DNA of 64,000 nucleotides from a virus, in UHGV virus genome UHGV-1366990; one strand, 5' to 3'. Of this stretch, positions 2,998 to 62,927 are shown piece after piece. Made by a program: the position numbers and the translations under genes. A model generated the notes under the pieces. It was not told where the DNA came from and ran no database searches. It saw only the letters and a program-made list of their open reading frames with translations. Every line of letters starts with the position of its first letter. The stretch's first letter is position 1.

Positions 2998-3165
2998 TTA
3001 CTTTTTCTTCAGCTCTTCCAGTTTGGCTTCGATTTGTTCTAAGATATCTTTACCCTTCTGAACAATCACTTCACCATCTTGCGCGTGTTTACGGAAGACC
3101 AGAGCGCCAGCGATGAAGCCGACAACCGCGCCAGGAAGCGCATAAACCAGCAGATCTTGTAACAT
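2998..3165 (-). CDS. small membrane protein (55 aa; MLQDLLVYALPGAVVGFIAGALVF...)
   Basis: Below ORF-track length cutoff; ATG at 3165 with GAGGA 8 nt upstream; one predicted TM helix then charged helix. Confidence 0.4.
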   Translation of the reverse strand: MLQDLLVYALPGAVVGFIAGALVFRKHAQDGEVIVQKGKDILEQIEAKLEELKKK

Positions 3166-3201
3166 GATAATATCCTCGCTTTATAGGCGAGGATATTTAT
3201 A

Positions 3202-12658: not shown

Positions 12659-13117
12659 TTATTCTTCCCAGAAGTCTTCGTCGTCCCCGACAGCAGCCAG
12701 TTCCGTGTCCAGTTCTTCATCGGTAAACGGTGGCAGCACCCCGTTCTGAATCAGATAATCCATCTCATCGTCTTCCAGCTGCAGGTCGGTGGCAATATAC
12801 AGCGCTCCACTGCCTTCTTCGTCCGTCTCGATGCTGTATGAAGTGTATGGCACCCCATTCACTGTAATGATGATAGAGGTCGGATCCTTGGGATCTACGT
12901 GCGCCTCGAACGGCACACCATCAATCGGTGCATCTTCCAGGAAGGTGGCAAGAGCTACGGCGGCGCGGACAACATCAGTGCCTTCAACGCCCGCATAGAT
13001 CTCTTCCGCGCCTGTCTCTTCACGATCAAACAGCTCAATCGTGATACCGTCTTGAACACCAGTCCATACAGGGATGTCATTGGTGTATTCTGATTCAAAC
13101 AATTTGGAGGTTGGCAT
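12659..13117 (-). CDS. highly acidic protein (152 aa)
   Basis: ORF with GAGGAAC RBS; preceded on minus strand by two CTAAATACCCC late-promoter-like motifs. Confidence 0.55.
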   Translation of the reverse strand: MPTSKLFESEYTNDIPVWTGVQDGITIELFDREETGAEEIYAGVEGTDVVRAAVALATFLEDAPIDGVPFEAHVDPKDPTSIIITVNGVPYTSYSIETDEEGSGALYIATDLQLEDDEMDYLIQNGVLPPFTDEELDTELAAVGDDEDFWEE

Positions 13118-13145
13118 GTTAGGTTCCTCAGTGGGTTAGCCATAT

Positions 13146-13239
13146 GGGGTATTTAGGCAGGCCTGGTTTGTACAGGACGCCTCTAGGAAATATTGGAGGA
13201 AGGTTTCATAGATACCCCACACTGGTTGTATGGGGTATT
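13146..13239 (-). promoter_or_regulatory. two tandem late-promoter-like CTAAATACCCC motifs (minus strand), one with GGGGTAT inverted partner
   Basis: Reverse complement of ggggtatttag at 13146-13156 and 13229-13239; hairpin 13212-13238. Confidence 0.35.
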
Positions 13240-13248
13240 TAGGAGGGA

Positions 13249-14442
13249 TCAGGAAGGGGTGAATTCGTTTACAGGTATTGCTTCGGGGATAGCCAGTTCA
13301 GGGCATGCTGCCTTCATCGGATCGATGTATGGCTTGCTACCCACAATCCAGAACAGAGTGTTCTCGTTGAGCAACTCGGGCTTGTGTTGCTGAACCCAGG
13401 TCATGACCTTGCCTTCATAGCGAGGATGCAACTCAATATCGCCCCACTGATATTCCATCAGGTCATTGTAACGAACCCAATTAGTAGTATGAAGATCCCA
13501 ATGGTGTACCTCAAAGCGAGGAAGCACGACCTCTGGCTCTTCCTTCTGCCTGATACCACTTAGGAGGCCAGCCAGCGAAACGCTCTTAGAGGCATGCTGA
13601 AGCTCCTTCTTGCCGTGTACATAGTCTGGGTTGTCGTGATAGCGACGGGTGAAGTCGACAATGTGCGGCAGATTGGCATGTTTGCCGATGATGCGCAGAC
13701 GGCTCTCGATAAAGTCAAGGCGGTTAGGACCGATGCCGATCAGATACACGCGCTTCAGATTAGGCTTCGGGTGCATTGCCAGCCCGGTCAGGATGCTTGT
13801 GCAAGAGTTGCACGATCCGGCTGGGATGATCAGGTCGGTAATGTGATCAGGAATGTTGGCAACCTGCTCGCCACCCAGCATATGGAAGCCAGCGATGCGC
13901 TCAGGAGAATGCGCTGTATGGTCGAGGGTGATACCATACTCCAGATAATACGCCTTTGGATTCTGTTGTTCGATCAACTTCTTACAGCGCGGCTGGATCG
14001 TGCTGTTGTAACCCGATCCGACGAAGTTGAACTCACTACCAAACCAGGCTGACATTGCCACCATTTCATGGTTCATACAGGTGGTGGGTTTGGTCGCTCC
14101 GAGTACAGTGGTTGTCTTACCACCGAAGTGTCGAGAGACTGCTGTCGCCATAGGGGACTGCGGACTACCAACGACAGTACCATGGATGATGTCAGGGGAG
14201 CCTCCGGCCTTGAGGTGCTCAACCATCAACCAGATGGCCTGGCGGAGTTTGCTGCCGTTGATGCCCTGCTGTCCATTTGCATAATTGGACAGCGGCGCAA
14301 AATAATCTTCACGCTTGAACCAGACCTGCTGATTGGTTTCGGGGTTGACGACAAGTTCGCACGGGGTGTGCTTGTAGAGATAATCTTCCCAATGGACCAG
14401 GTTGCGGTCGAGGGAAAGGGTATCGAAGATGGTCATGTTCAT
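13249..14442 (-). CDS. PLP-dependent enzyme, fold-type II (ACC deaminase / D-cysteine desulfhydrase-like)
   Basis: 397 aa; KREDYFAPLSNYANGQQGINGSKLRQ resembles KREDL..GGNKxRKLE PLP-lysine motif; AGGAGA RBS. Confidence 0.6.
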   Translation of the reverse strand: MNMTIFDTLSLDRNLVHWEDYLYKHTPCELVVNPETNQQVWFKREDYFAPLSNYANGQQGINGSKLRQAIWLMVEHLKAGGSPDIIHGTVVGSPQSPMATAVSRHFGGKTTTVLGATKPTTCMNHEMVAMSAWFGSEFNFVGSGYNSTIQPRCKKLIEQQNPKAYYLEYGITLDHTAHSPERIAGFHMLGGEQVANIPDHITDLIIPAGSCNSCTSILTGLAMHPKPNLKRVYLIGIGPNRLDFIESRLRIIGKHANLPHIVDFTRRYHDNPDYVHGKKELQHASKSVSLAGLLSGIRQKEEPEVVLPRFEVHHWDLHTTNWVRYNDLMEYQWGDIELHPRYEGKVMTWVQQHKPELLNENTLFWIVGSKPYIDPMKAACPELAIPEAIPVNEFTPS

Positions 14443-15537: not shown

Positions 15538-15626
15538 TGGCGGAAGGTGAAGGATTCGAACCTTCGGGGGCTAAAAGCCCCACTCGATTAGCAGTCGAGT
15601 CCCTTAAACCTCTCGGGCAACCTTCC
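15538..15626 (-). tRNA. tRNA-Ser (anticodon GCU), type II with long variable arm, CCA encoded
   Basis: Hand-folded: acceptor GGAAGGT/ACCTTCC, anticodon stem CTCGA/TCGAG, loop CTGCTAA, variable stem GGGGC/GCCCC, T-arm GAAGG-TTCGAAT-CCTTC. Confidence 0.85.
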
Positions 15627-15847
15627 AATTTGGACGGGCTTCACACCCGATTGAGCATTTGATCTGCCGTAGCCCAACTCCCCGCGCTTCTCAGCGCCGA
15701 TTGGTTAACTGGCGACCAGTGCCTTCTGGTTCGATCTCCTGGAACTTTACAGGCTTTGCGCCCGACCATTTCTGGAAGTTGGGGCATCGTTTCCGATGCG
15801 GAGTCATCCCCATTTTATACACAGCTGGCTGCAACGCTTACTGTGTT

Positions 15848-15891
15848 TGGTGTGAGTGGATGGATTCGAACCACCGCGCTGTTACACTCAC
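15848..15891 (-). other. tRNA-like minihelix: acceptor-like stem plus canonical T-arm and encoded CCA, no D or anticodon arm
   Basis: GTGAGTG...GGTGG-TTCGAAT-CCATC-CACTCAC-A-CCA on minus strand. Confidence 0.25.
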
Positions 15892-16148
15892 ATTTGGTCT
15901 GCCGCTGTGTGCTGGGCCACGCTCGAGGACATCGGCCATCCTTCCTCAGCTAATCCACGCAGCGGTAGATTTGTATCAGAGTGTCCGGTGTAGCAACCCG
16001 TGAGGTGCGCACTACTGTAGCCTCTACACTCTGAATTTGGTGGGCGCTACTATCGTCGTCTTCGGATTCCGTTCGGCTATTGGACAGAGGCTTGGAGCTT
16101 GTCGGTCGCGTACTTTATGCCTATTCACTTTCGTTCACACCCATTGTC

Positions 16149-16224
16149 TGGCGACGATGGCAGGACTTGAACCTGCGACATACGGTTTAACAGACCGCCG
16201 TTCTACCGACTGAACTACATCGTC
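16149..16224 (-). tRNA. tRNA-Asn (anticodon GUU), CCA encoded
   Basis: Hand-folded: acceptor GACGATG/CATCGTC, D-arm GTTC-AGTCGGTA-GAAC, anticodon loop CTGTTAA, T-arm GCAGG-TTCAAGT-CCTGC. Confidence 0.85.
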
Positions 16225-16395
16225 TTGCAAATCACTATACCATATAAAGTTTATTGAACAAACATTTATTTTACAACAAACTGTATTGGCGGGGTCTGAG
16301 GCTTTTCACCTCACCTGCTGGGTTTGGCCGCCCAGCCGTTCTCTATGAGGATTCACTGTCCGGACAGCTATCCATTAAACTATCGCCCCTCAATA

Positions 16396-16472
16396 TGGTG
16401 ATCCTGATTGGGTTTGAACCAATGACCAATGAATTATGAGTTCACTGCTCTAACCGACTGAGCTACAGGACC
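16396..16472 (-). tRNA. tRNA-Met (anticodon CAU; initiator/elongator/Ile-lysidine not distinguished), CCA encoded
   Basis: Hand-folded: acceptor GGTCCTG/CAGGATC, D-arm GCTC-AGTCGGTTA-GAGC, anticodon loop CTCATAA, T-arm ATTGG-TTCAAAC-CCAAT. Confidence 0.85.
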
Positions 16473-18678: not shown

Positions 18679-18996
18679 TCCGGAGCCTCACTGGATTGAT
18701 TAAATGTCTCCGTTATTATATTGGGAGTATGTTTATTGAATATAAACACAGGAATGACCAATAAAATAATGACAGTGATTATTAATAGGTAAAAACTACT
18801 TTTCTACAACATCAAGAAACTGTATCCTAACGCAGTGCCCTTCGAGTTGTGAGTGTCAACGAACAACGAGAAGCAGCCTCCATGGCTGTGGAATGGTGCT
18901 GCCCGCATAGGGCGGTGTTACGAGCGAGGGCGTCAGCCCCCTCGCGAGTTATATTCGAATAAATTAAACGCGCGCGAGCGTTTTGATTCCCGTTGG

Positions 18997-19004
18997 CTAA
19001 ATAT
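18997..19004 (+). promoter_or_regulatory. late-promoter-like motif CTAAATAT (T4 TATAAATA analogue) upstream of baseplate gene
   Basis: Motif 40 nt upstream of ATG 19044; same core recurs before other virion genes. Confidence 0.4.
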
Positions 19005-19043
19005 CTTCAACACCATATTCAAACTCAGGTGATGGAGATTATC

Positions 19044-20822
19044 ATGGCCACGCAAACAGTCCCTTCACTCGATGTCAGGGCTTTCGAGTATCTTATCAAG
19101 AAGCGCATGAAAGCTGATCCAACTTTCAAGGATTATGACTTTGAAGGTTCTGGTCTCAGTGCAATCGTGCGTATCTTGGCCTCGGATGCCAACTCTATCG
19201 GGTTTATGCAGAACATGCTGAATGGCGAAAGCCATCTTCACTCTGCTCAACAGCGTTCTAATGTCGGTCTGGCGGCGGGGTTCTTATCTTACACCCCTCA
19301 CAACTACCAGGCAGCGTACCTGTACGCAAACGTCACAGTCACTCCATATGACGCCAGCACGGCTCCAGACACGATTGTAATGGATCGCCGCGCGATGTTC
19401 ATTGGGGTGAAGGATGGCAAATCTTATAACTTCACGGTTGACCAACCTGTGAGCGCCTCTCTTGTAGACGGCTCTTACAAGTTCGAGAACATCAAACTCA
19501 TACAGGGTAACTGGCTGTACAAGTCCTATGATGTGGAAGGCAGCGCGATCTCTACCTATGTGATCCCATCTTCTTCCGTGGACATCGACCATATGGTGGT
19601 ACAGGTACAGGAATCTGAGACATCTGACGTGCGATCTACCTTCTCACGATATGTCAGCCCGTTCGATTTGAGCCAGTATGCGCAACTTTACTTCGTTGAG
19701 CTGGGGTTGGACGGGATGTACACGTTCGAATTCGGTGATGGGTATATCTGTAAGCGAGTAGAAGACGGGAACGTCGTGTACCTCCAGTATCTGGAGACAG
19801 CTGGTGCAGACGGCAATGACATCACTACCTTGTCCTCCGCGTCTTCCATCGGGGGATTCAACCTTGTAGATGTTGAGCTGGTGTCAGAACGTTCTTCCGG
19901 TGGTAAGGACCCAGAGAGCATTGAGGACATCAAGCGCCTTGCTCCGCTGGCTTATCAGGCTGAGGGTGCGGCGGTAGCCGAAGTCGATTATGCTGTGTTG
20001 ACCGAGCGTCTGTTCTCTAACGTCTCCCGCGCCAAAGCATATGGTGGCGACACGCTCTCTCCGCCCGACTCCGGATACGTTTACATTGCTGTGATACCTT
20101 CTGTTGGTGAGGCGCTCTCGGACGCTGAGAAGGCAGATATCGTGGCGACGTTAGACAAGTACAATGTGGGCACGATCACACCCAAGATTGTCGACGCTGA
20201 ACTGACTTATGTTGATGTCACCACCCGCGTGTTCTGGGATCCGACTTCCACGTCCTATACCGAAGAGCAGTTGAAGACAGTCGTGAAGAACGGTGTTGTC
20301 AACTGGGGCTTGGGGAACCTAGAAGGATTCGACGAACTGTTCGATAAAGAGCAGTTACAGTCGGCCATCACCGACATGGACAGATCGATAGTGTCAAACA
20401 TCACTTCTGTGAAGTATAAGCGCCATTTCAAGCCAGACTATGGGGTACTGGACAGCTTCACATTCGATTTTGGGCGCTCGATTGCGTCTGGTTCTGTGCG
20501 TATCAGTGGGTTTAAGCCGCTTCCGGCCGAGGTCGAATTCACTTACTACATACGCGACGTCAGTGGTGTCCTGAATATGTACAAGGTGAGTACAACAGAC
20601 ACGACCAAGGAATATCTGGTACAATCTGTTGGAACGGTTGATTATATGACTGGCGTTGTTGAACTCCAGCGTATCATAGTATCCAACTACAACACTGAGG
20701 GTGTGACAATAATTGTGTCTCCAGACGGTCTTGACCAGAACATTCAGGCCACACAGAATCAGGTGCTCCGCATCGGTGCTGTAACTGTGGAGCCGGAGGT
20801 GCGTTATGTCCAAAGATCTTAA
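19044..20822 (+). CDS. baseplate wedge protein (gp6-like)
   Basis: 592 aa from ATG with GGAG RBS (track start 18993 is TTG); first gene of late module, size and position fit T4 gp6. Confidence 0.6.
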   Translation: MATQTVPSLDVRAFEYLIKKRMKADPTFKDYDFEGSGLSAIVRILASDANSIGFMQNMLNGESHLHSAQQRSNVGLAAGFLSYTPHNYQAAYLYANVTVTPYDASTAPDTIVMDRRAMFIGVKDGKSYNFTVDQPVSASLVDGSYKFENIKLIQGNWLYKSYDVEGSAISTYVIPSSSVDIDHMVVQVQESETSDVRSTFSRYVSPFDLSQYAQLYFVELGLDGMYTFEFGDGYICKRVEDGNVVYLQYLETAGADGNDITTLSSASSIGGFNLVDVELVSERSSGGKDPESIEDIKRLAPLAYQAEGAAVAEVDYAVLTERLFSNVSRAKAYGGDTLSPPDSGYVYIAVIPSVGEALSDAEKADIVATLDKYNVGTITPKIVDAELTYVDVTTRVFWDPTSTSYTEEQLKTVVKNGVVNWGLGNLEGFDELFDKEQLQSAITDMDRSIVSNITSVKYKRHFKPDYGVLDSFTFDFGRSIASGSVRISGFKPLPAEVEFTYYIRDVSGVLNMYKVSTTDTTKEYLVQSVGTVDYMTGVVELQRIIVSNYNTEGVTIIVSPDGLDQNIQATQNQVLRIGAVTVEPEVRYVQRS

Positions 20823-22882: not shown

Positions 22883-22925
22883 CTAAATACCCCTAGATGA
22901 AACGAACACATTTAGGGGTATTTGA
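22883..22925 (+). promoter_or_regulatory. late promoter CTAAATACCCC plus inverted partner GGGGTATTT just before start codon
   Basis: aactaaatacccctag...tttaggggtatttgaaATG; GGGG lies 9 nt before ATG. Confidence 0.45.
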
Positions 22926-22926
22926 A

Positions 22927-25900
22927 ATGGCTAATAAACCAACACAGCCTGTTTTCCCTCTCGGTCTGGCGGCTGAAGAGCAGTCTACTTTGGCTGGTGT
23001 CCTCAACACGGGTACGATTGAGCATGGACCAGATGCTGTCCTGACTTTACCCGAGGGTAATGCCAGCGCAGGACTCCCGTCTTCCGTTCGCTACAATGCC
23101 GACTCCGACGAATTTGAGGGCTTCTATGAAAATGGTGGATGGTTGCCGCTGGGTGGCGGTGGTATCCGCTGGGAAGTCCTTCCGCATGCCTCTACGACAA
23201 CACTCACTGAAGGGCGAGGCTATCTCATTAATAATACCACAGGGGCGTCTACAGTGGTTCTCCCGCTCCCTACGCGCATTGGTGATTCTGTTACTGTCTG
23301 TGACATGTATGGGAAGTTCTCTGTCTATCCACTGACCATTGACCCGAATGGAAAGGCTATGTATGGGAATGTGGAGGCCATGACGATCTCCACAGACAGC
23401 GCGACCGCAACGTTCACCTGGACTGGAGATGCTCGTGGCTGGATTATCACAGCAGGCGTCGGCCTGGGCCAGGGGCGTGTCTACAGCCGAAACATCTATA
23501 CCGATACTCTGGGCTTCCCAACCTCCGAAGTCACCCTGACAACCCAGCCACTTATCGTTGATGTCTATGTTGATGGTAAGCGCCTGGTGGAGTCCAAATA
23601 CTCCCTGAGTGGTTATGAAGTTCGCTTCAGCCCATCTCTTCCGGCTGGTGTTGAATTGCAGGTTGTTCAGTACGTTCCGATCCAATTGGGTCTCGGGTCT
23701 GGCGGGTCTGACAGCGGTATCACTCCTTGGGTCTACAACGGCGGTGCTGCAGTTGGCGGCGAAACCACTATCTCTGTTCCAGACTTGGCGCTGGGTGTTC
23801 CGTTCATCACCATCAACGGATATGCCAACTACCCTGGATTTGCGTACAGCTATGATGCAGGTGCCCACGTCCTCACCTTTGGTACTCCACTGGAAGCAGG
23901 CGACATGGTTGTCCTTATGCTGTCTGGTGAAGTTGCTGGGAATATCCCGGTCAACACCAGCGCAGGCTTCCTGGCGATAGAGGCACTGCGTCGCACCTAT
24001 GCCGAAGCGGGTTACAACCTGGTCGGAGGGAGTTTCGGTCGTGGTGGCACTGTCAACACAGCAACTGATGTTCTGCTCAATGAAGTGGATGGAAAGGCTT
24101 ATTCCTGGGGTGGAACTTTGCCTAAGACTGTGCCAGCTGATAGTACTCCCATCAGTAGTGGCGGGCTTGGAATTAGTGCGTGGGTGGATAGATCTGCTGC
24201 ACCTAATAGCTTTACTCAGACCGGAGCAGGAGCGGTTACAAGACCCGCTCAAGACAAAATGCGTGAAGAGTATAGCGTTCAGGACTTTGGGGCCAAAGTG
24301 AATAGTGGAGTGGATGAGACAGACAATATTAAGAAATGCCTTGCTCATGTAAAAGCGAAAGGCGGGAGAGCTAAAATTAACTTCCAGCCTGGGGAGTATA
24401 TGGTTCGTGGAACGGAGCTAATTGTCGATTTTTCTAATGTCATGTTGGAAGGTTATGGGGCCATACTTAAGCTTGTTGATAGCCCGACGGCGATTCAAGG
24501 CCCTGTGCTCAAGATTGCCCAGTACGGTGATCCAACTGTAAGGGGGACAGTTGAGAACGTCATAGTCAAAGGGTTCACGATTTATGGTAATAAGCTGAAT
24601 CAAATTCAAACCATGAACGCAGGTGGGGATGCGAACAATCCCGGATTTGTGTCTGAGGATGTCGTTAATTTGCATGTAGAGGACGTTATTGTCTATGATT
24701 GTGACGGTTATGGATTCCTCTTTGCTGGTTCAAACCTCCCCCATCGCAAGGGTGCGTACTTCAAGAACTGCTGGGCATTCGGTAACAACGTTGACGGATT
24801 TGATATCAAGGCAGGGTTTAACCATGTCACTCTCGACAGTTGCAGGTCGTGGGGTAACGGCTACGCGCCCATAGTTGCCCTACGCTCCGGAATGGGGTTC
24901 GATACCCGTGGCAAAGACGTTACCTTGATTAACTGCGTAGGTGGGGATGAGGGTAGCAACTATGCTGGCAACTTCCGCGTGCGCGAAAACGCAGAGGCGG
25001 GAATCTCATTCCTGGGGTGCCATAGCTATAACTCGCCTAATGGTACTTACGGCTTTATGTGCATAGGTGGTGGAAATACCAACGTGTCACTGATAGGCTG
25101 TACGTCTTCCAATGACGGAACCTCTATTAAGCATGAGCGAGGACACCTTACAGTAGTAGGGTTCAGGTCATGGAAGCCGAAGCTTCTGAGTATCCTGCAA
25201 TACCCGTCACAGTTTGTGTTGAGCACACTGACAGAAGCAGCTACATTCAGTTCCTATGGCGAATCGGTTACTATTTATCCTAGTGATTATCTCAGCGCTA
25301 CCGTAGGTTCTGAAATCAAGATCCCAACCGATGCTGGGACGATTTACCTCCTGGTTACACAGGCAGTTGCATCTACGCTGGTGTGTACGGTTCTGCGTGG
25401 AAATCTGGGGACGGCTGCGGCAGGAGCGAGTATCACTACTGTATCGACGGGAAGCCTGACGGTACATGGCGGAATATCTTATCAGTCTGCTGGTGATGCT
25501 GTTCAGTTTGCGTCTACCTTACAAACCCTTACTGATAGTTCAATGCCTGCAACTTTTAACGGGTTCGTTATAGAGGCACCAACCCGTTACGGAGTGAATT
25601 TTCAGGGTGGCGATGTGAGTTTTTATGGTGGCGCAATTCGAAACTGTGGCAAAGGGTCATCCTCCCCTGGATTTTTCGTCGGCAATGCAGCTACTGCTGA
25701 ATCGACATTCCGGTTGGACAGTGTATTCATGGGTAATGACGACAAATCTTTCACGCAGTCAGCTGGCATTCAGTTCCAGTCAACAAGCCTGGCGAAAGGG
25801 AGCGTTAGAGCGTGTAAATTCGCCGATAATGCCAACTCGCCAGTCATTGGCTCGCCATCTTCTGGTGTGCGGTTTGCAGACAATATCGGCTACACCAACG

Positions 25901-26166: not shown

Positions 26167-26346
26167 GGCGCAGGAGGAAGTGGAACGGGATCGAACCAGC
26201 GCATGAAAAGCTGGTAGCTGAGTCATATGTTATTGGTGAGAAATATGGCATCCGGTATGAAGAAGCGTTGGTGATGGAAGCCGCTCTTCAGAGACGCAAT
26301 TACCAACGCCTTCTGAATCGTATTGAAGCGCTGGAGAATAAGTAAC

Positions 26347-26375
26347 AAACACCCCCATCTACGGATGGGGTTATT
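26347..26375 (+). terminator. intrinsic terminator after tailspike 1 (cccccatctacggatgggg + T-rich)
   Basis: 7-bp GC stem followed by ttattact. Confidence 0.45.
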
Positions 26376-28788: not shown

Positions 28789-29040
28789 CTCCTGGCGGGA
28801 TTATTGATAGGTATCACCGCATTGATCTGCACTGCCTTTAAAACTACTGTGTATAAAACAGTAAAAGGAGTGCAGATCATGCCCCGCCGTCACGACATTC
28901 ACGCCGCATTTGTGGCCGCAATACAGCTAAACACAAAGGGCTGCCGATGCTTACGCACAGAAGACTTTATCCGCGAACTGGCAAAGGTCCACTGGTATTT
29001 CAAATAAATGACGAACCTTGATAGGAACAGAAGCCCTTCA

Positions 29041-29080
29041 CTAAATACCCCATATTGGCAAATCCTTTATGGGGTATTTT
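29041..29080 (+). promoter_or_regulatory. late promoter CTAAATACCCC with inverted partner GGGGTATTT
   Basis: cactaaataccccatattggcaaatcctttatggggtattttcatATG. Confidence 0.45.
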
Positions 29081-29083
29081 CAT

Positions 29084-31513
29084 ATGTCCAGACCAGTCGA
29101 AAGCATCTTTGGAGCCGTGGTCACCGCTCCTCACCAGATTCCATACACATACACAGCCGTAGGTGGCGAAACGTCCATCTCTCTCCCCGTATTCCCTGTC
29201 ACAGGCCTGGTCACTATCGGTGGCGGCGTACAAGTCCCACTCGACAACTATGAGATAGAAGGGAACGTCCTTCATCTTGGTGGACCTCTTGAACCGGGCG
29301 ACGTTGTGTACTGTCTGTTTGACAAGGTACTGTCTCCAGAAGGTCAGAACTCTACCACTCGCATCTACAAATTCAAATCAGTGGGTGGAGAAACTTCATT
29401 CACTCCAGACTTCACTTCCTATGGCGTGCAGTCGCTGTACATTGATGGGAAATACCAGACGCCGATTGATGACTACACCTACAACAAAGAGACTGGCGTT
29501 GTCAGCCTGAAGACCGCAATTGTCGGGGCTGGGAAATGGGTTGTGGCTGAACTGTATGTACAACAGAATTACCCGGCGCTGGCAGCTCCTGATGGTGCCG
29601 ATATGATCGGGGTTCCAACAACAGAAACTTCTTTGGGGGAATTGCTTTCATCTGATGATATGGCCATCAAATATGGTTATGTCAACCCAACAATCAGTGA
29701 AAGGCTTGGGCGTGAAGGGGCGAAGGTTGTTTTGGTCGGCGACAGTCTGAGCAGTTTCTTCAACATAGATTCTGTGAACACAGCGTCTATCTTTGAGTCT
29801 TACCTGCGCCGCAAGATCAGAGAATTCAATGGTACGGCGAAGTTCTACAACAGAGCCATCGGTGGCAAGCGTTACTATGACTTGGGTAGAAATGAACCGC
29901 CTCTTGATACTCTGACGAGCGGATACCCTTGGTATACAGACACGTCCAAGCGTTGGATGACTTACTTGGACGATCTTAAACCAGATGTGATCTTCTTAGC
30001 CTTTGGTATGAACGATGGTCCGGGATGGGACGTAGGTAACTTTCAGCAAGATAACTTCTTCAAGATGATGGAAGAACTTAAGTCCATCAGTTCAAGCCCT
30101 GAGTTGGTGTTCTGTACCAATATTCTTCCTTCTACAACACATGTTGATACCGCAGCAGAAGACCAGCAGCAGGGGCGTGATGCGATGGCTGGCTGGACAA
30201 GAAGTTTTGCCAGAAAGGCGGGATATAGCTTCCTTGATCTTCATAGACGTTTCAAATGCTTACGTGATGGTGTAGACCCGTGCATGGCTAGTTATGCCCG
30301 TAAAACCATTCAGAAAGTGGTGTCGCTTCCGTATGTACACACCGCCCAGTGTGATATGTATTCGGCTCGGGTAATTTTGATCGATCCAGCCGTCGCGACC
30401 ACAGGTATTAGATTCCAGTTGTCGAAGTATTCTAACAACTTCATGACCTTGAAATACGATACCACGACATCTCGCTGGATAACGACCGCATATACAGCTT
30501 CTTCGTCTTCCGTTGGCGTCGCTGACCAGAGTTCTATGCCTGGCCCAGCCCCGGCTGAGGGAACAGAGATATACTTCACCATGAACGGTGACGTTGTCGT
30601 AATAACCATCGGCATCAACACATATCCGGTGTTCAGCCGTAATATTGTGCGCTTCGGTGGTAAATTCTTCCCTGAAATCGGCGGAACTGGTGATATTCGG
30701 ATTGACATGATTGAGGGTACGCCCATCCCTGTTAAATCAGAGCTGACGGATTATGATTGCTACAACACCGACGGCGATGGCGGGAATGGCATCAACCACC
30801 CAACAGCCAAAGCGAGTTCCCGAATTTATACTCGCGTTGTTGACGACTGGTTCAGTATGCTTGCTGGGTCTGTGAGTTCCAGAAAGCAGGTGCTGGACAT
30901 TGACTTTGTCAACGGCACTGTTGTGGTGAGAAACCCGTATAGCCCAGAACTATCTTGTGAAGCCAAAATCAGCGCCGCCCTGACTTTTATCAACGGATCA
31001 CTCGCATACCAACGCGACGCTCAGGGACGTGTCATTGGAGCGGTATTTGGGGCTACGAACAGAGCATATGTTGACCAGGCGTTCTTCAATGCTTATGCGG
31101 GGAATTACAGCCAGCTCACATTTGAAGTAGAGTTCGTTGCCCCGGGCGCCCAGGCATACATCTGCACGTTCGGGGAAAACACCACAAGTGACCGAATCAT
31201 GGCTCAGGTCACAAGTGATTTACGCCCAAGAATCACGGCAGCCGTGGCATCACAAGCCAGTGACCTTTTCGGTTCGGCTTCGTTCCCATTTGTTGCTGGC
31301 CGGAAATACGCTTTGAAATTCTCTTTAGATTGTGAGAATTCGGTCGCGCGAATGTGGGGGCAGGACAACTCCGCGCGAGGTAACATCAACGTTACCCCTA
31401 TAACCGCCATATCTCCGGCGACATTATCCAAGCTGAAGTTGGGTTATGCGTCAACTGGAACATTTGGTGTTGATGTCGTGGTTTCAAGAATCAGAGTCTG
31501 GTTCTCCAACTGA
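29084..31513 (+). CDS. tailspike protein 3 with SGNH/GDSL-hydrolase-like motifs (putative glycan esterase)
   Basis: 810 aa; VVLVGDSLSSFFN (GDSL block I) and FLAFGMNDG (GxND block III) in central region. Confidence 0.8.
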   Translation: MSRPVESIFGAVVTAPHQIPYTYTAVGGETSISLPVFPVTGLVTIGGGVQVPLDNYEIEGNVLHLGGPLEPGDVVYCLFDKVLSPEGQNSTTRIYKFKSVGGETSFTPDFTSYGVQSLYIDGKYQTPIDDYTYNKETGVVSLKTAIVGAGKWVVAELYVQQNYPALAAPDGADMIGVPTTETSLGELLSSDDMAIKYGYVNPTISERLGREGAKVVLVGDSLSSFFNIDSVNTASIFESYLRRKIREFNGTAKFYNRAIGGKRYYDLGRNEPPLDTLTSGYPWYTDTSKRWMTYLDDLKPDVIFLAFGMNDGPGWDVGNFQQDNFFKMMEELKSISSSPELVFCTNILPSTTHVDTAAEDQQQGRDAMAGWTRSFARKAGYSFLDLHRRFKCLRDGVDPCMASYARKTIQKVVSLPYVHTAQCDMYSARVILIDPAVATTGIRFQLSKYSNNFMTLKYDTTTSRWITTAYTASSSSVGVADQSSMPGPAPAEGTEIYFTMNGDVVVITIGINTYPVFSRNIVRFGGKFFPEIGGTGDIRIDMIEGTPIPVKSELTDYDCYNTDGDGGNGINHPTAKASSRIYTRVVDDWFSMLAGSVSSRKQVLDIDFVNGTVVVRNPYSPELSCEAKISAALTFINGSLAYQRDAQGRVIGAVFGATNRAYVDQAFFNAYAGNYSQLTFEVEFVAPGAQAYICTFGENTTSDRIMAQVTSDLRPRITAAVASQASDLFGSASFPFVAGRKYALKFSLDCENSVARMWGQDNSARGNINVTPITAISPATLSKLKLGYASTGTFGVDVVVSRIRVWFSN

Positions 31514-33991: not shown

Positions 33992-33999
33992 CTAAATAT
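33992..33999 (+). promoter_or_regulatory. late-promoter-like motif CTAAATAT
   Basis: 35 nt upstream of ATG 34034; shows the 33863 ORF-track start is not the real start. Confidence 0.4.
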
Positions 34000-40503: not shown

Positions 40504-40511
40504 CTAAATAC
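40504..40511 (+). promoter_or_regulatory. late-promoter-like motif CTAAATAC
   Basis: 23 nt upstream of ATG 40534. Confidence 0.4.
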
Positions 40512-40533
40512 CTTCAAAATTGAGGGTATCGAT

Positions 40534-41184
40534 ATGGCCACTTCTAAATATTTCAACGCCACCAATCACCAAGGCACACAGAAGCTGATTGAAGATTTGG
40601 TACAGGAAATGATTGAGTTGCGCGGGATAGACATCAAGTATATACCCCGTTCCATCGTTGAAAAATTTCCTATCACCAACGATGCCAACCACAGGTTCGA
40701 CCAGGCGTTCGACATCGAAGCGTACATGCAGGATTATCAGGGCTTCAACACCCAGATGTGGGAGAAGTTTGGGGGTATCCAATTGCAAGACGAAGTGACG
40801 TTCTCTATCTCGCGCCGCCGATTTGCCGAGGTGATAGGCAACGGTGTTGGGATTGAACAACAACCTCAGGAAGGTGACCTGATCTATCTACCACTGGCGA
40901 ACAAGATCTTCAAGGTCAACAACCCGAACAACGATGAAGACTTCATGCAATTTGGCAAATGGTATACGTTCTCTCTGCCGTGCACGTTGTTCCAGTACGG
41001 CAACGAAAACTTCGATACGGGCGTTCCGGAGATCGACGATATCGACAAACGTCTGTCCATCTTGGACGAAGAGAACGAACCGGACGTGTACAAGGATTCT
41101 TCTCTACAGACCGACAATGCTTTAGCAGATGATCTTGAGAAGGGGCTTGCAACAGACAAGATGAAGATCGACTTTGGAGAATAA
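40534..41184 (+). CDS. neck protein (gp14-like)
   Basis: 216 aa; GAGGG RBS; position between gp13-like and gp15-like genes. Confidence 0.55.
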   Translation: MATSKYFNATNHQGTQKLIEDLVQEMIELRGIDIKYIPRSIVEKFPITNDANHRFDQAFDIEAYMQDYQGFNTQMWEKFGGIQLQDEVTFSISRRRFAEVIGNGVGIEQQPQEGDLIYLPLANKIFKVNNPNNDEDFMQFGKWYTFSLPCTLFQYGNENFDTGVPEIDDIDKRLSILDEENEPDVYKDSSLQTDNALADDLEKGLATDKMKIDFGE

Positions 41185-44786: not shown

Positions 44787-44794
44787 CTAAATAT
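44787..44794 (+). promoter_or_regulatory. late-promoter-like motif CTAAATAT
   Basis: Upstream of sheath gene start. Confidence 0.4.
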
Positions 44795-47076: not shown

Positions 47077-47080
47077 CAAG

Positions 47081-58189: not shown

Positions 58190-58222
58190 CTAAATACCCC
58201 CATCATACATGGGGGTATTTTC
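58190..58222 (+). promoter_or_regulatory. late promoter CTAAATACCCCC with inverted partner GGGGGTATTT
   Basis: ccctaaatacccccatcatacatgggggtattttcttATG. Confidence 0.45.
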
Positions 58223-58224
58223 TT

Positions 58225-58953
58225 ATGAACGCACAGATCTATGACGCCCTATCACAGGGCAACGCCTTTACCAATCCTCTCCCGTCCCTCAGCAGCGCCT
58301 CACAGGGGTTAATCACCAGTGGTAAGGCGACTACAGCGTCACTGGCTAACACCGGAAATGCGCAGATTCAGGAAGCGCTGACGGCAGGTGGGTTGACTAC
58401 AGCCAAACTCAACGAATCTACAGCAATGTTCAACTCAGCCAACAACAGCATCACTACTTTGAACAACTATGGCGACCAGTCAGTGAACGAGGCATATTCC
58501 CGCATCGGTACATCTGTGTCGTATAAGTCCGCCCTGAAGTCTATAGGTCGAGAACCGAACAACTGTGATCTGATCAATAATGCATTTGGGATTATTCAGA
58601 ACCTCGGCAAACAGTGGATCAACACCATGCAAAGTGTTCTCACAACTATCACAAACAAGATGAATGAGCTGGCTGAGTTGGTAGCTCAGGGTGTCAGTGC
58701 TGGTCTTGATGCTATTCGGGCACTGGCTGCTGAAGTTACTCAGGCCATCGACACTGCTGTCGCATCAGTAGCCTCTATTGCTCAGGACATCACGAACGGT
58801 ATTGCAGCAGAGTTAGCCCATATCCAAGACATGGTTGGTAAGTGTCTTAACTTCTCTTTTGCCAACGTGATATCAGAGTGGGCGAAAGATATCTGCGCCG
58901 GAGGTGTCATCAACAGCATCGGTTCCGATAATCTGAAGAACGCACTGAAGTAA
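58225..58953 (+). CDS. putative virion-associated protein (243 aa)
   Basis: Late-type promoter; Ala/Ser/Asn/Thr-rich; track start 58183 lies inside the promoter. Confidence 0.55.
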   Translation: MNAQIYDALSQGNAFTNPLPSLSSASQGLITSGKATTASLANTGNAQIQEALTAGGLTTAKLNESTAMFNSANNSITTLNNYGDQSVNEAYSRIGTSVSYKSALKSIGREPNNCDLINNAFGIIQNLGKQWINTMQSVLTTITNKMNELAELVAQGVSAGLDAIRALAAEVTQAIDTAVASVASIAQDITNGIAAELAHIQDMVGKCLNFSFANVISEWAKDICAGGVINSIGSDNLKNALK

Positions 58954-60643: not shown

Positions 60644-61390
60644 ATGGCATCTCTCCAAGATCTACGCAAGCTGAATGACTTCGAAAACCGTCATTACACA
60701 TTCCAGCAATACGAACTTCCTCATAAGGAACTGGAGTGTGTTACGACGGAGAATGGTCGTCATTACGTTTCACCGTCTGGTGTAAAACTGACATCCGTCA
60801 CGACTATGCTGGGACGCACTGGAGATCATGAATGGCTTGAGTCTTGGAGGAAGAAGCTGGGCGCAGAGGCCGCTGATCTTGAGACCATGCGCTGTGCTGA
60901 CCGAGGGGAGAAGCTGCACCTTGCTTGTGAACTGTATCTAAAGAACCGCCCAATGAAAGAAGTGTTGGAAGCGGCTGGCGAATACATGTTCATGTTCAAG
61001 CAGCTGTTCCCTTACCTGAACAAGATGACAAAGATCTATGCTCAGGAGATCCCATTATATAGCGAGGTGCTTGGTCTTGCAGGTCGTGTAGACCTTATCG
61101 GGGTTTATGAGGGTAAACCTGCTGTCATCGACTTCAAGACATCGAACACCATGAAGACGCGGGGCATGATCGAGGATTACAGTATTCAGCTGTGCTTATA
61201 TTCGGTCATGTTCCAGCAGATGTTCGGCGTCAAGATCACCCGCCTCATCAACGTGATTGCCAACGAGTCTTCCCCTCTACCAACCGTCATTGAGTTCAAC
61301 CGTGATGACATTCTGACTAAGATGTTTGAGCGTGTTCGTCTGTATCATCGCATGGATAAAGAACAAAACGGAGTCTGGCCGGATCACTAA
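60644..61390 (+). CDS. PD-(D/E)xK nuclease, RecB/Cas4/lambda-exonuclease-like
   Basis: GRVDLIGVYEGKPAVIDFKTS matches RecB-type GxxD...(D/E)xKT motif. Confidence 0.6.
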   Translation: MASLQDLRKLNDFENRHYTFQQYELPHKELECVTTENGRHYVSPSGVKLTSVTTMLGRTGDHEWLESWRKKLGAEAADLETMRCADRGEKLHLACELYLKNRPMKEVLEAAGEYMFMFKQLFPYLNKMTKIYAQEIPLYSEVLGLAGRVDLIGVYEGKPAVIDFKTSNTMKTRGMIEDYSIQLCLYSVMFQQMFGVKITRLINVIANESSPLPTVIEFNRDDILTKMFERVRLYHRMDKEQNGVWPDH

Positions 61391-61394
61391 ATAC
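61387..61394 (+). promoter_or_regulatory. late-promoter-like motif CTAAATACCCC
   Basis: 25 nt upstream of UvsW ATG. Confidence 0.4.
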
Positions 61395-61418
61395 CCCATA
61401 ATCCTTGGGAGATTTTGT

Positions 61419-62927
61419 ATGGCAGACATTCAGATTGTTAAGGTTAACGAAGTCCGCATGCGTTGCATCGCAGATCTTTCTATCAGGGAAGAACTTAATG
61501 ACTACTTCAAATTCGAAGACCCGAACTTCGTTCCCAACCCCTTCTCTAAATGGGACGGGGTTGTCCGCCTATTTACCAAGTCATCTGGTCTAATCGATAT
61601 CGGTCTGCTGTTTGAGGTATTTAAGTTCTGTAAGAACAACGGATACACCATTGAACTGGATCCGGCACTGAAGTACATTCAGGACATCCCAGATGAAGAA
61701 ATCCGTGAATTCATCGACAGCCTGCATCCAAAGATCCGTACCGAAAATCACGAATATATCGATGCCGAGACTCGTGACTACCAGTACGACACCATCGCCA
61801 AGGCTATGCGTCAAACCAGATGCGTCTGTGAACTGGCTACGAGTGCCGGTAAGTCCTTTATTCTGTATGTCATGGCGCGGTACTACAGGCGGCGCAGAGA
61901 AGCTCTCGAAAGTCCTCTGAAGACGCTTATCGTGGTGCCGTCAATCCACCTAGTCACTCAGCTGTACGACAACTTCGAAGAGTATGCGCATGGCAGTGAT
62001 TGGAAGCCCGTTGTTAACACCCAGCTGATTTTTGAGGGCGCGACAAAGGAGATCAGTAAACCAATCGTCATCAGCACATGGCAGGGCATTCAAGACCAGT
62101 CGAAGGAATGGTTCCACCAGTTCGGCGATATCGTGGTGGATGAAGTGCACACCTCCAAGTCTGAGAAACTGTCTTACATCCTGAACAACTGCATCTATGC
62201 CGACCAGCGCCTGGGGGTTACAGGTACGCTGGCGAACACCAAAGTTGCCGGGCTTCAGGTGGTGGCTCACTTCGGGGCGTACCATAAGATCATCACGGCT
62301 CGCGATCTTATCAATCTCGGGTACGCCACTGACATCAAAGTGAAGATGATTCAGCTGAAGCACACTCCGGCGGATGCTGTTGGTCTAGACGGGGATTATT
62401 CCAAGGAAATAGAATACCTTATTACACACCAGTCCCGCAACGAACTGATCGCCAAGATGGCACTGAATCTGAAAGGGAACGTGGCCATCATGTTCGAGCG
62501 TATTGACGCCCACATGATGGTTGTGTACGATATGCTGAGCGCAGTCAAGCCCAACGTGTTTGTCATCAACGGGGAAGTGAAGATCGAAGACCGCCGCCGC
62601 ATACAGAAAGCGATGGAGGATGGAGAAGATATCACGTTGTTGGCTTCATACGGGACAATGCAACAGGGTGTGTCAATCAAGAAGCTACACCACCTTGTAC
62701 TGGCACACCCGAGCAAGTCATATATCCGTGTCATACAGACATTGGGTCGTCTGATGCGTCAGCACTCCTCTAAGGACGTCGCGTGGATATGGGACTTAGT
62801 GGATGATGCATCGTACAACGCCAGCACGAACCACGCTCTCAGGCACTCTCATGAACGTTACAAGTTTTACCTGGCAGAGCGCCACCCCGTGGAGTTCATG
62901 AAGGTGGCGCTGGGCAATCACGATTAA
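61419..62927 (+). CDS. uvsW: UvsW-like SF2 DNA helicase
   Basis: GVVRLFTKSSGLIDIGLLFEVFKFCKNNGYTIELDP parallels T4 UvsW N-domain; Walker A ATSAGKSF and DEVH box. Confidence 0.85.
   Translation: MADIQIVKVNEVRMRCIADLSIREELNDYFKFEDPNFVPNPFSKWDGVVRLFTKSSGLIDIGLLFEVFKFCKNNGYTIELDPALKYIQDIPDEEIREFIDSLHPKIRTENHEYIDAETRDYQYDTIAKAMRQTRCVCELATSAGKSFILYVMARYYRRRREALESPLKTLIVVPSIHLVTQLYDNFEEYAHGSDWKPVVNTQLIFEGATKEISKPIVISTWQGIQDQSKEWFHQFGDIVVDEVHTSKSEKLSYILNNCIYADQRLGVTGTLANTKVAGLQVVAHFGAYHKIITARDLINLGYATDIKVKMIQLKHTPADAVGLDGDYSKEIEYLITHQSRNELIAKMALNLKGNVAIMFERIDAHMMVVYDMLSAVKPNVFVINGEVKIEDRRRIQKAMEDGEDITLLASYGTMQQGVSIKKLHHLVLAHPSKSYIRVIQTLGRLMRQHSSKDVAWIWDLVDDASYNASTNHALRHSHERYKFYLAERHPVEFMKVALGNHD

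What the first reader, a model, noticed from the sequence alone, without database searches (positions are those of the whole stretch)
29041..29086. Late-promoter element CTAAATACCCC paired with inverted GGGGTATTT before start codons
A T4-late-like core (CTAAATA[CT]) precedes at least eleven virion genes. At five sites (22883-22925, 29041-29080, 58190-58222, 13205-13239 on the minus strand, and a degenerate copy at 61387) it extends to CTAAATACCCC and is followed 10-20 nt later by its inverted complement GGGGTATTT, whose GGGG sits 9 nt before the ATG. The second half therefore doubles as a ribosome-binding site and as the partner of a promoter-spanning palindrome. This could couple promoter structure to translation initiation or bind a dimeric late regulator.
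Basis: partly seen in the sequence, partly recalled or inferred. Interest (0 to 1): 0.55.

Follow-up and report, generated by a model that had tools for sequence, protein, structure and literature searches.

The report
Late promoter hairpin that masks ribosome sites
In this Vi1-like (Ackermannviridae) phage, several late promoters are written into one arm of an RNA hairpin whose other arm is the gene's ribosome-binding site, so probably only transcripts started at that promoter can be translated. This is the trick phage T4 uses for its lysozyme gene, so it is real but not a new kind of mechanism.

Summary
CTAAATACCCC occurs six times exactly (about 0.6 expected). Four copies are followed by GGGGTAT(T/C)T within 10-21 nt (chance about 5e-9), one has a degenerate partner, and one has none.

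The window is an Agtrevirus-like Ackermannviridae phage, where 'CTAAATAcCcc' is already a published regulatory motif. The family encodes gp55, gp33 and gp45 homologues.

RNA that includes the promoter folds into 11-16 bp hairpins (-18 to -22 kcal/mol) that bury the only Shine-Dalgarno-like bases. RNA started at the T4-rule start site, the 6th nt after the core, loses the hairpin (-3 to -5 kcal/mol).

The same design with different arm sequences occurs in the window before gp6, the gp14 neck gene and a 55-aa membrane protein. In LIMEstone1 it precedes the endolysin, RuvC and an intron endonuclease. T4 gene e reads TATAAATACCTTC...AGGAGGTATTATG.

Hairpins are conserved across four genus-level groups. 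They contain G-U pairs but no A-C mismatches, and arm spacing varies from 19 to 30 bp. This argues for sense-strand RNA and against a dimeric DNA-binding regulator.

Best reading: T4 e/49/I-TevI-type translational gating, possibly with partial termination. No transcript ends were available. It is a new member of a known kind, of moderate-low interest.

The parts
22883..22889 (+). Late promoter core CTAAATA before the 1079-aa tailspike gene. Predicted start site is A22895.
   Evidence: The T4 rule places TATAAATA at -13..-6 and the Aeh1 core CTAAATA starts at -12 (PMC1524935).
22884..22924 (+). 16-bp hairpin. The 5' arm is 22884-22899 (promoter core plus CCCCTAGATG). The 3' arm is 22909-22924 (CATTTAGGGGTATTTG, containing the GGGG Shine-Dalgarno). 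ATG is at 22927.
   Evidence: -22.3 kcal/mol, z -7.0. RNA started at 22895 gives -3.2. Conserved in 15 related contigs with G-U to G-C changes.
29041..29079 (+). The flagged site: CTAAATA (29041-29047). 12-bp stem 29043-29054 / 29068-29079, plus an apical GG/CC mini-helix. GGGG is at 29071-29074. ATG is at 29084 (809-aa tailspike).
   Evidence: -18.8 versus -4.9 kcal/mol. The cassette is 85-100% identical in 14 contigs, while coding sequence is about 71% and upstream sequence is unrelated.
58190..58220 (+). CTAAATA plus a 12-bp stem 58192-58203 / 58209-58220 (AAATACCCCCAT / ATGGGGGTATTT). ATG is at 58225. The 242-aa product is the orthologue of LIMEstone1 ORF129, a confirmed structural protein.
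13207..13242 (-). CTAAATA (13242-13236) plus an 11-bp stem 13238-13228 / 13222-13212 (one G-U pair). It is followed by an 8-codon remnant ORF with ATG at 13209. This is a deletion scar of the ORF173-like gene.
   Evidence: (-18.1 kcal/mol).
13146..13156 (-). CTAAATACCCC promoter with no inverted partner. The RBS is GAGGA and ATG is at 13117 (152-aa structural protein, phrog_3852).
   Evidence: (z +0.3). The partner-less state is conserved in 7 contigs.
61387..61421 (+). CTAAATACCCC before uvsW, with a weak 4-5 bp pairing between CCCC and GGGAG (61407-61411). ATG is at 61419. The upstream gene's TAA stop lies inside the core.
   Evidence: z -0.4; 59/300 shuffles. Treated as not significant.
18995..19049 (+). 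gp6 baseplate promoter CTAAATA (18997-19003). Helix 19003-19009 / 19033-19039 (AUCUUCA / UGGAGAU) masks the Shine-Dalgarno. Outer helix 18995-18999 / 19045-19049 masks the start codon (ATG 19044).
   Evidence: -20.7 versus -7.2 kcal/mol; 1/300 shuffles; outer pair GC:4, AU:3, GU:1.
40504..40536 (+). gp14-like neck gene promoter CTAAATA. 8-bp stem 40509-40516 / 40521-40528 (UACCUUCA / UGAGGGUA). ATG is at 40534.
   Evidence: (-11.4 kcal/mol, z -3.5; late RNA -2.9). Present in most but not all relatives.
3163..3201 (-). T4-consensus TATAAATA (3201-3194) plus an 11-bp stem 3197-3187 / 3179-3169 (AATATCCTCGC / GCGAGGATATT). ATG is at 3165, opening a 55-aa predicted membrane protein.
   Evidence: I22; -20.5 versus -1.9 kcal/mol. 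The LIMEstone1 ORF191 orthologue has a G-U variant.
33992..33998 (+). Late promoter core without an RBS-masking hairpin (1612-aa structural protein). The cores at 44787 (sheath), 47953 (tube) and 51494 (scaffold) also lack one.
   Evidence: ddG is 0 to -7 kcal/mol and not different from shuffles.

Best explanation
Each element is a gp55-type late promoter built into the 5' arm of an RNA hairpin. The core is CTAAATA, followed by a pyrimidine tract (here CCCC). The 3' arm (GGGGUAUUU) is the downstream gene's Shine-Dalgarno region.

Proposed mechanism. Transcripts entering from the co-oriented upstream gene contain both arms. They fold a hairpin of -18 to -22 kcal/mol that buries the ribosome-binding site, so the gene is silent on read-through RNA and some polymerases may also terminate there. 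Transcripts initiated at the embedded promoter start about 6 nt after the core, just past CCCC. They lack the 5' arm, leave the RBS open and are translated. Expression of these genes therefore depends on their own late promoter. This is the gating shown experimentally for T4 e, soc, 49 and I-TevI.

Shown here: motif enrichment, complementarity, fold energies, conservation, and the same architecture at other genes and in T4.
Inferred: the position of the start site, the existence of read-through RNA, and the translational effect.
For: - Enrichment and non-chance pairing.
- Fold contrast. Full RNA gives -18.1 to -22.3 kcal/mol (z -3.4 to -7.0). RNA from the predicted start site gives -3.2 to -5.6 (z about 0). 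The Shine-Dalgarno window's unpaired probability rises from 0.00-0.10 to 0.39-0.47.
- The hairpin is lost once the 5' end is at least 4 nt past the core.
- The T4 core lies at -13..-6 and the Aeh1 core CTAAATA starts at -12 (PMC1524935). In 7 of the 12 gene-proximal sites the 6th nt after the core is A.
- GGGG is the only Shine-Dalgarno-like sequence before these ATGs. Genes without a hairpin use GAGGA, GGAG or GAAGGA.
- The same architecture appears with unrelated arm sequences at gp6, gp14 and the 55-aa gene in the window. In LIMEstone1 it appears at the endolysin, RuvC resolvase, the intron endonuclease I-LimII and ORF078. These are functional counterparts of T4 e, 49 and I-TevI.
- T4 gene e reads TATAAATACCTTC...AGGAGGTATTATG and folds the same way. 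Reviews describe the mechanism (PMC3014915 and PMC2988022).
- Hairpins are conserved in Agtrevirus-, Limestonevirus-, Kuttervirus- and Taipeivirus-like contigs.
- There are 24 G-U pairs and no A-C mismatches in stems. One G-C / G-U / A-U covarying pair involves a synonymous codon change.
- gp55, gp33 and gp45 homologues are annotated in the family (PMC3184105).
Against: - No transcript 5' ends or translation data exist for any Ackermannviridae phage that I could find. The start site is extrapolated from T4 and Aeh1.
- If initiation were 3-5 nt closer to the core, late mRNA would keep a -9 to -14 kcal/mol hairpin.
- For the tailspike genes the upstream genes are themselves late. The classical rationale of silencing early read-through therefore does not obviously apply there.
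- Covariation within orthologues is thin: one double change, likely a single event. The 5' arm is constrained by promoter function anyway.
- CCCC is conserved even where no partner exists (13156), so CCCC itself is not explained by pairing.
- The uvsW copy pairs no better than shuffles.
Confidence: 0.6

Rival explanations
1. The hairpin is primarily an intrinsic terminator for the upstream transcription unit. The next gene's late promoter overlaps its A-tract arm. RBS masking would be incidental.
For: - The form A-tract / C-run / loop / G-run / U-rich tail (AAATACCCCCAT..ATGGGGGTATTTTCTT) resembles a bidirectional terminator.
- All copies sit 0-33 nt after the stop codon of a co-oriented gene.
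- A similar CCCCATC..GATGGGG+TTATTA hairpin at 26353-26370 has no promoter.
- The LIMEstone1 record annotates 28-nt 'terminators' about 30 nt from the late promoters of ORF129 and the endolysin. These may be the same hairpins with shifted coordinates.
Against: - The consensus scan did not call any of the four.
- This phage's clear terminators look different: G+C stems, TTCG loops and uninterrupted T runs, for example at 47078 and 53822.
- Loops of 9 and 13 nt at two sites are atypical.
- The U-rich tail is simply the complement of TAAATA and is absent at 22883 beyond the stem.
- The gp6, gp14 and I-LimII hairpins have no U tract yet still mask the RBS. RBS masking is therefore the shared feature.
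- This rival is compatible with the best explanation as an added function.
Confidence: 0.17
2. Late transcripts begin at or before CCCC and keep the stem. The hairpin would then be a 5'-terminal stabiliser or translational attenuator of the late mRNA itself, not a discriminator between transcripts.
For: - Starts at +1 to +2 after the core would leave hairpins of -11 to -14 kcal/mol.
- The C-rich segment after the core differs from the AT-rich one described for T4 late promoters (PMC2988020). Start-site spacing might therefore differ too.
Against: - Spacing in T4 and Aeh1 puts +1 six nt after the core.
- A conserved A occupies that position at most sites.
- In T4 gene e the equivalent CCTTC tract lies upstream of the mapped late 5' ends (PMC3014915; sequence).
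- Abundant virion genes would then carry a permanently masked RBS.
Confidence: 0.1
3. The cassette serves mainly as a conserved recombination linker. This would be a late-promoter analogue of the promoter/stem-loop cassettes reported for T4-type phages, allowing tailspike modules to be exchanged together with their own expression signals.
For: - Before the 29084 tailspike, homology between genera starts exactly at CTAAATA. The cassette is 85-100% identical, upstream sequence is about 17-32% identical (random level), and coding sequence is about 71% identical.
- Two of the four strong copies flank tailspike genes, the most mosaic genes of this family.
Against: - The same cassettes precede non-mosaic genes (ORF129-like, ORF173-like), and analogous hairpins precede the endolysin and RuvC.
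- A 40-nt identity tract is short for homologous recombination.
- The deletion at 13209(-) did not use the two promoter copies as end points.
- Conservation is equally explained by promoter plus RBS function.
Confidence: 0.08
4. The palindrome is a DNA operator for a dimeric late regulator.
For: Near-perfect inverted repeats overlap a promoter at four sites.
Against: - Centre-to-centre spacing of the half-sites is 30, 28, 20 and 22 bp in the window and 19-29 bp in relatives.
- G-T positions break DNA symmetry while preserving RNA pairing.
- Other promoters pair with their RBS through different sequences.
- A CTAAATACCCC promoter exists without the second half-site.
Confidence: 0.05

Closest known systems
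T4 gene e (lysozyme) leader, with the analogous soc, 49, I-TevI/II/III, segB and Aeh1 mobE leaders
   Same: - The late promoter box plus a pyrimidine tract forms the 5' strand of a hairpin.
- The 3' strand is the Shine-Dalgarno region with or without the AUG.
- Upstream-initiated RNA is masked, and late RNA lacks the 5' strand (PMC3014915 and PMC2988022).
- T4 e reads TATAAATACCTTC..AGGAGGTATTATG. That compares with CTAAATACCCC..GGGGTATTT here and TTTAAATACCTTCGC..GCGGAGGTATTT at the LIMEstone1 endolysin.
   Different: - The phage family differs (Ackermannviridae, not Straboviridae).
- The core is CTAAATA, and a GGGG tract serves as the RBS.
- It is applied to tailspike, baseplate and neck genes whose upstream neighbours are also late genes.
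- Nothing has been tested experimentally here.
Published Viunalikevirus/Ackermannviridae motif 'CTAAATAcCcc'
   Same: It is the identical sequence, listed as a family-specific regulatory motif (PMC7283392). LIMEstone1 late promoters are annotated at the orthologous sites.
   Different: The papers I could read list the motif only. None mentions the inverted partner, RBS masking or a hairpin.
Aeromonas phage Aeh1 late promoter CTAAATA
   Same: Same 7-nt core with C at -12, recognised by a diverged gp55 (PMC1524935).
   Different: That paper describes no CCCC extension and no systematic pairing with the RBS.
Intrinsic (Rho-independent) terminators
   Same: Stem-loop with a G/C core, an A-tract on the 5' side and a U-rich 3' side, placed directly after a stop codon.
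   Different: - The U tract is interrupted.
- Loops reach 13 nt.
- The simple scan does not call them.
- They are unlike this phage's own strong terminators.

Membership tests
T4-type (gp55-dependent) late promoter | Short TATAAATA-like -10 box, with no -35 element, enriched upstream of late genes | tested here: met
   CTAAATAY has 13 copies against 2.3 expected. Twelve lie 30-49 nt before start codons of virion or assembly genes, uvsW or the remnant.
T4-type (gp55-dependent) late promoter | The phage encodes gp55, gp33 and gp45 homologues | tested here: met
   They are annotated in LIMEstone1 as ORF091, ORF053 and ORF120. They are also stated for CBA120, ViI and AG3 (PMC3184105). I did not verify them in this window's own genome outside the window.
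T4-type (gp55-dependent) late promoter | Transcripts start about 6 nt downstream of the box, late in infection | not testable with these tools
   No transcript data were found. The position is inferred from PMC1524935.
T4 e/soc/49/I-TevI-type promoter-embedded RBS-masking hairpin | A stable helix sequesters the Shine-Dalgarno region and/or AUG in RNA initiated upstream | tested here: met
   -18 to -22 kcal/mol, z -3.4 to -7. Shine-Dalgarno unpaired probability is 0.00-0.10. This is a prediction only.
T4 e/soc/49/I-TevI-type promoter-embedded RBS-masking hairpin | The late promoter lies in the region encoding the 5' strand, so late RNA cannot form the helix | tested here: met
   The core and CCCC are the 5' arm. 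RNA from the predicted +1 folds at -3 to -5 kcal/mol. This depends on the inferred start site.
T4 e/soc/49/I-TevI-type promoter-embedded RBS-masking hairpin | The gene is also present on longer transcripts from upstream promoters | tested here: inconclusive
   Upstream genes are co-oriented, end 0-33 nt before the motif, and have no called terminator in between. No RNA data are available.
T4 e/soc/49/I-TevI-type promoter-embedded RBS-masking hairpin | Long transcripts are poorly translated and late transcripts are well translated | not testable with these tools
   This needs toeprinting or reporter assays.
Intrinsic terminator | G+C-rich stem, loop of 3-8 nt, uninterrupted U run directly after the stem | tested here: inconclusive
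   The scan did not call them. 58190 fits if the stem is shortened, whereas 22883 and 29041 have loops of 9 and 13 nt. The gp6 and gp14 hairpins lack U tracts.
Palindromic operator of a dimeric DNA-binding protein | Fixed spacing and duplex-level symmetry of the half-sites | tested here: not met
   Spacing is 19-30 bp. G-T positions occur in stems.
Promoter/stem-loop mobile regulatory cassettes of T4-type phages (recalled from memory, not read here) | Repeated promoter plus stem-loop units at the borders of shuffled gene modules | tested here: inconclusive
   A homology breakpoint at CTAAATA was seen for one tailspike gene. The promoter class here is late, and other copies flank conserved genes.

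The most novel reading that the evidence does not exclude
The CTAAATACCCC...GGGGTATTT unit may be a self-contained 'insulator cassette'. It would combine a partial terminator and RBS mask for incoming RNA, a late promoter, and a conserved recombination linker. Ackermannviridae could then swap tailspike modules while each module keeps autonomous, stoichiometry-setting expression, independent of whichever late operon it lands in.
Probability: 0.15. Interest if true: 0.55.

Novelty: new member of a known kind. Interest (0 to 1): 0.33.

Why it matters
- It gives a concrete, testable regulatory model for late genes of Ackermannviridae. These phages are widely used as biocontrol and therapy candidates, and their host range is set by the tailspikes. 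Late transcription signals were still undefined for the family in 2011 (PMC3184105).
- It suggests that T4's promoter-choice translational gating is an old, widely shared design among gp55-using phages. It also appears to extend from lysis, nuclease and homing genes to structural genes.
- Practical point for engineering: anyone swapping tailspike genes should carry the roughly 45-nt cassette along. A tailspike placed behind a foreign promoter with the full cassette would probably be translationally silent.
- Practical point for annotation: in-frame ATGs inside the stem (22897, 29069) can mislead gene callers.

Tried and rejected
- Chimeric fold matrix, pairing each promoter half with every leader. 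It was confounded because the CCCC promoters are interchangeable and my split left the inner stem in the leader. Only gp6, the 55-aa gene and the 242-aa gene ranked their own promoter first. I used it only to show that masking is a property of particular leaders.
- Formal covariation on gp6 orthologues. It found one double change; 17-22 of 500 shuffles reached the observed covariation score, paired-cell percentage and double-change cell count. This is weak support, not proof.
- Consensus terminator scan. It did not call the hairpins, so the terminator reading could be neither confirmed nor excluded.
- Rfam search. It found only three tRNAs and no known RNA family at the hairpins.
- Literature searches for Ackermannviridae transcriptomes or mapped late start sites. 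Nothing was found.
- LIMEstone1 'terminator' features next to late promoters. Their coordinates fall on non-palindromic sequence about 30 nt away. They are possibly shifted annotations of these hairpins, and I did not rely on them.
- Divergent promoter on the opposite strand. Rejected because the reverse complement of the 3' arm reads CAAATA or AAAATA, not CTAAATA, and no gene lies there (listing).
Full report
**1. What the window is**

Megablast places the window in an Agtrevirus-like member of the Ackermannviridae. It is 97-99% identical to Escherichia phages vB_EcoM-ZQ1, LHE287, A221 and AV101. It is 87-91% identical to Shigella phage Ag3 and Dickeya phage LIMEstone1. The tailspike region is mosaic.

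The window runs from the DNA polymerase region, through the tailspike, baseplate, neck, sheath, tube, portal and capsid genes, to uvsW.

**2. The observation**

Counts:
- CTAAATACCCC occurs six times exactly, against 0.57 expected even with one mismatch allowed.
- CTAAATAY occurs 13 times, against 2.3 expected.

Inverted partners:
- Exact AAATACCCC partners lie 20-30 nt downstream at 22883, 29041 and 58190.
- A one-mismatch partner follows 13242(-).
- A two-mismatch partner follows 61387.
- 13156(-) has no partner.
- From the background density of GGGGTAT, at least 4 of 6 having a partner within 40 nt has probability about 5e-9.

GGGG lies 5-9 nt before the ATG and is the only Shine-Dalgarno-like sequence there.

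Downstream genes:
- two tailspikes of 1079 and 809 aa;
- a 242-aa protein whose LIMEstone1 orthologue is a confirmed virion protein;
- uvsW;
- a 152-aa structural protein;
- at 13242(-), only an 8-codon remnant.

**3. The motif is already known**

'CTAAATAcCcc' is quoted as one of two family-specific regulatory motifs of these phages (PMC7283392). LIMEstone1's record annotates 'putative late promoter' -10 signals at the orthologous positions.

The family encodes gp55, gp33 and gp45 homologues (PMC3184105). CTAAATA is also the late core of Aeromonas phage Aeh1, starting at -12. T4's TATAAATA spans -13 to -6 (PMC1524935).

None of the papers I could read mentions the inverted partner.

**4. Anatomy and folding**

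| Site | RNA including the promoter (kcal/mol) | z-score | RNA from the 6th nt after the core (kcal/mol) |
|---|---|---|---|
| 22883 | -22.3 | -7.0 | -3.2 |
| 29041 | -18.8 | -3.4 | -4.9 |
| 58190 | -19.9 | -3.8 | -5.6 |
| 13242(-) | -18.1 | -4.4 | -3.8 |

- The hairpins have 11-16 base pairs. RNA beginning at the predicted start site has z-scores near zero.
- The unpaired probability of the Shine-Dalgarno window rises from 0.00-0.10 to 0.39-0.47.
- Scanning the 5' end shows the stem is essentially gone once the RNA starts 4 nt or more after the core.
- The 6th nt after the core is A at 7 of the 12 gene-proximal sites, preceded by a pyrimidine tract.

**5. The design is general and not tied to the CCCC/GGGG sequence**

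A scan of all TAAATA cores followed by ORFs found the same promoter-to-RBS pairing with other arm sequences in the window:
- gp6: AUCUUCA / UGGAGAU, plus an outer helix covering the AUG. -20.7 versus -7.2 kcal/mol; 1 of 300 shuffles.
- The gp14-like neck gene: UACCUUCA / UGAGGGUA. -11.4 versus -2.9 kcal/mol.
- A T4-consensus TATAAATA at 3201(-) before a 55-aa membrane protein: AAUAUCCUCGC / GCGAGGAUAUU. -20.5 versus -1.9 kcal/mol.

The sheath, tube, scaffold and 1612-aa protein promoters have no such pairing.

In the complete LIMEstone1 genome the strongest cases include:
- the endolysin (TTTAAATACCTTCGC..GCGGAGGTATTT, -18.0 kcal/mol);
- the RuvC-like resolvase;
- the intron endonuclease I-LimII;
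- ORF078, ORF173 and ORF191.

The endolysin, resolvase and intron endonuclease are the functional counterparts of T4 e, 49 and I-TevI.

**6. Comparison with T4**

The T4 gene e leader, fetched here, reads TATAAATACCTTCTATAAATACTTAGGAGGTATTATG. It folds so that the first late promoter plus CCUUC pairs with AGGAGGUAUUAU.

Reviews state that e, soc, 49 and I-TevI are masked on early and middle read-through RNA. They are translated from late transcripts that lack the 5' strand, and related phages keep a late promoter in the region encoding that strand (PMC3014915; PMC2988022). The Ackermannviridae elements match this architecture feature for feature.

**7. Conservation**

Orthologous sites were recovered from 8-18 Ackermannviridae contigs per gene, spanning Agtrevirus-, Limestonevirus-, Kuttervirus- and Taipeivirus-like genomes.
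- The 242-aa gene and both tailspike hairpins are present in every contig. Inner-stem or loop differences preserve pairing, such as G-U to G-C changes and a retained apical GG/CC mini-helix with a variable loop.
- Before the 809-aa tailspike, the cassette is 85-100% identical across genera. The coding sequence is about 71% identical and the sequence upstream of CTAAATA is unrelated.
- The gp6 outer helix shows G-C, G-U and A-U states linked to a synonymous GCC to GCU change. This is probably one evolutionary event.
- Across all hairpins there are 24 G-U pairs and no A-C mismatches. That is expected for selection on the sense-strand RNA, and not for a DNA palindrome or antisense RNA.
- The partner-less 13156 promoter is partner-less in all relatives, so CCCC belongs to the promoter context itself.
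- The uvsW pairing is weak everywhere.

**8. Rivals**

- *Terminator.* The CCCC-class hairpins have an A-tract and a U-rich tail and sit right after stop codons. However, the scan does not call them. The phage's clear terminators look different. Two loops are long. The non-CCCC hairpins have no U tract. Termination may be an added function.
- *5'-terminal hairpin on late mRNA.* This is possible only if initiation is 3-5 nt closer to the core than in T4.
- *Dimeric regulator.* Disfavoured by half-site spacing of 19-30 bp, by G-T positions, and by the unrelated arms elsewhere.
- *Recombination linker.* Suggested by the homology breakpoint at one tailspike, but not required.

**9. Open point**

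For the tailspikes the upstream genes are themselves late. The hairpin would therefore insulate each tailspike from polycistronic late RNA, which could allow independent dosage. This differs from the early read-through that T4 e is protected against. It is an inference.

**10. Verdict**

The feature is real and well conserved. The promoter motif is already published. The pairing with the RBS is best read as a new instance of a known T4 mechanism in another phage family, extended to structural genes. Everything rests on sequence and predicted folding. Transcript 5'-end mapping is the decisive missing datum.

Noticed in passing
window 13117-13249 (- strand): There are two CTAAATACCCC promoters 86 nt apart. 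The first (13242) keeps its hairpin but precedes only an 8-codon ORF. Relatives show either an intact 152-aa paralogue (LIMEstone1 ORF173) or a 23-codon in-frame fusion (L041). This is therefore a decaying deletion scar that left an orphan promoter/hairpin.
   Followed up: partly
window 2998-3201 (- strand): A T4-consensus TATAAATA promoter and RBS hairpin precede a 55-aa protein with one predicted transmembrane segment and a charged coiled tail (LIMEstone1 ORF191 orthologue). A bidirectional terminator-like palindrome follows at 2934-2975. The gene is a candidate lysis-timing gene, given that the LIMEstone1 endolysin has the same control.
   Followed up: partly
window 26346-26375: The hairpin CCCCCATCtacgGATGGGG+TTATTA resembles the promoter hairpins but has no CTAAATA core. 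It lies between a stop codon and the 693-aa tailspike gene (ATG 26399). That gene has its own AGAGG RBS and no recognisable late promoter.
   Followed up: no
window 22897 and 29069: In-frame ATGs inside the hairpins extend the mechanical ORFs by 10 and 5 codons. The ATGs at 22927 and 29084 match orthologue starts, so gene callers may mis-place these starts.
   Followed up: partly
L009-L022, compared with window 28980-29084: Sequence similarity between genera upstream of the 809-aa tailspike begins exactly at CTAAATA. The cassette, including its loop, is far more conserved than the coding sequence that follows it.
   Followed up: partly
L066-L071 (T4-type contigs, uvsW upstream): The late promoter TATAAATA is followed 4-6 nt later by its complement TATTTATA. 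This gives a 9-bp all-A/U hairpin within a structure of -8 to -9 kcal/mol that ends just before the RBS instead of covering it.
   Followed up: partly
HE600015.1 92858-92885 and 54223-54250 (L023, L109): The annotated 'factor-independent terminators' fall on non-palindromic coding sequence about 30 nt from the promoter hairpins of ORF129 and the endolysin. They have the hairpin's length of 28 nt. This is probably a coordinate shift in the record.
   Followed up: partly
window: all CTAAATA sites, positions +1 to +5 after the core: The segment between the core and the predicted start is pyrimidine- and C-rich (CCCCA, CCTTC, TCTTC, TCTCT). T4 late promoters are described as AT-rich there (PMC2988020). 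CCCC is conserved even without a pairing partner.
   Followed up: no
window 40544-40551: A CTAAATAT copy lies inside the gp14-like gene, 10 nt after its ATG. It is probably fortuitous or a weak internal promoter.
   Followed up: no
window 61387-61393: The TAA stop codon of the upstream exonuclease-like gene (60644-61390) is part of the CTAAATA core of the uvsW promoter.
   Followed up: no
window 15538-16472 (- strand): There are three tRNA genes (Ser-GCT, Asn-GTT, Met-CAT), in opposite orientation to the adjacent baseplate and tailspike block.
   Followed up: no
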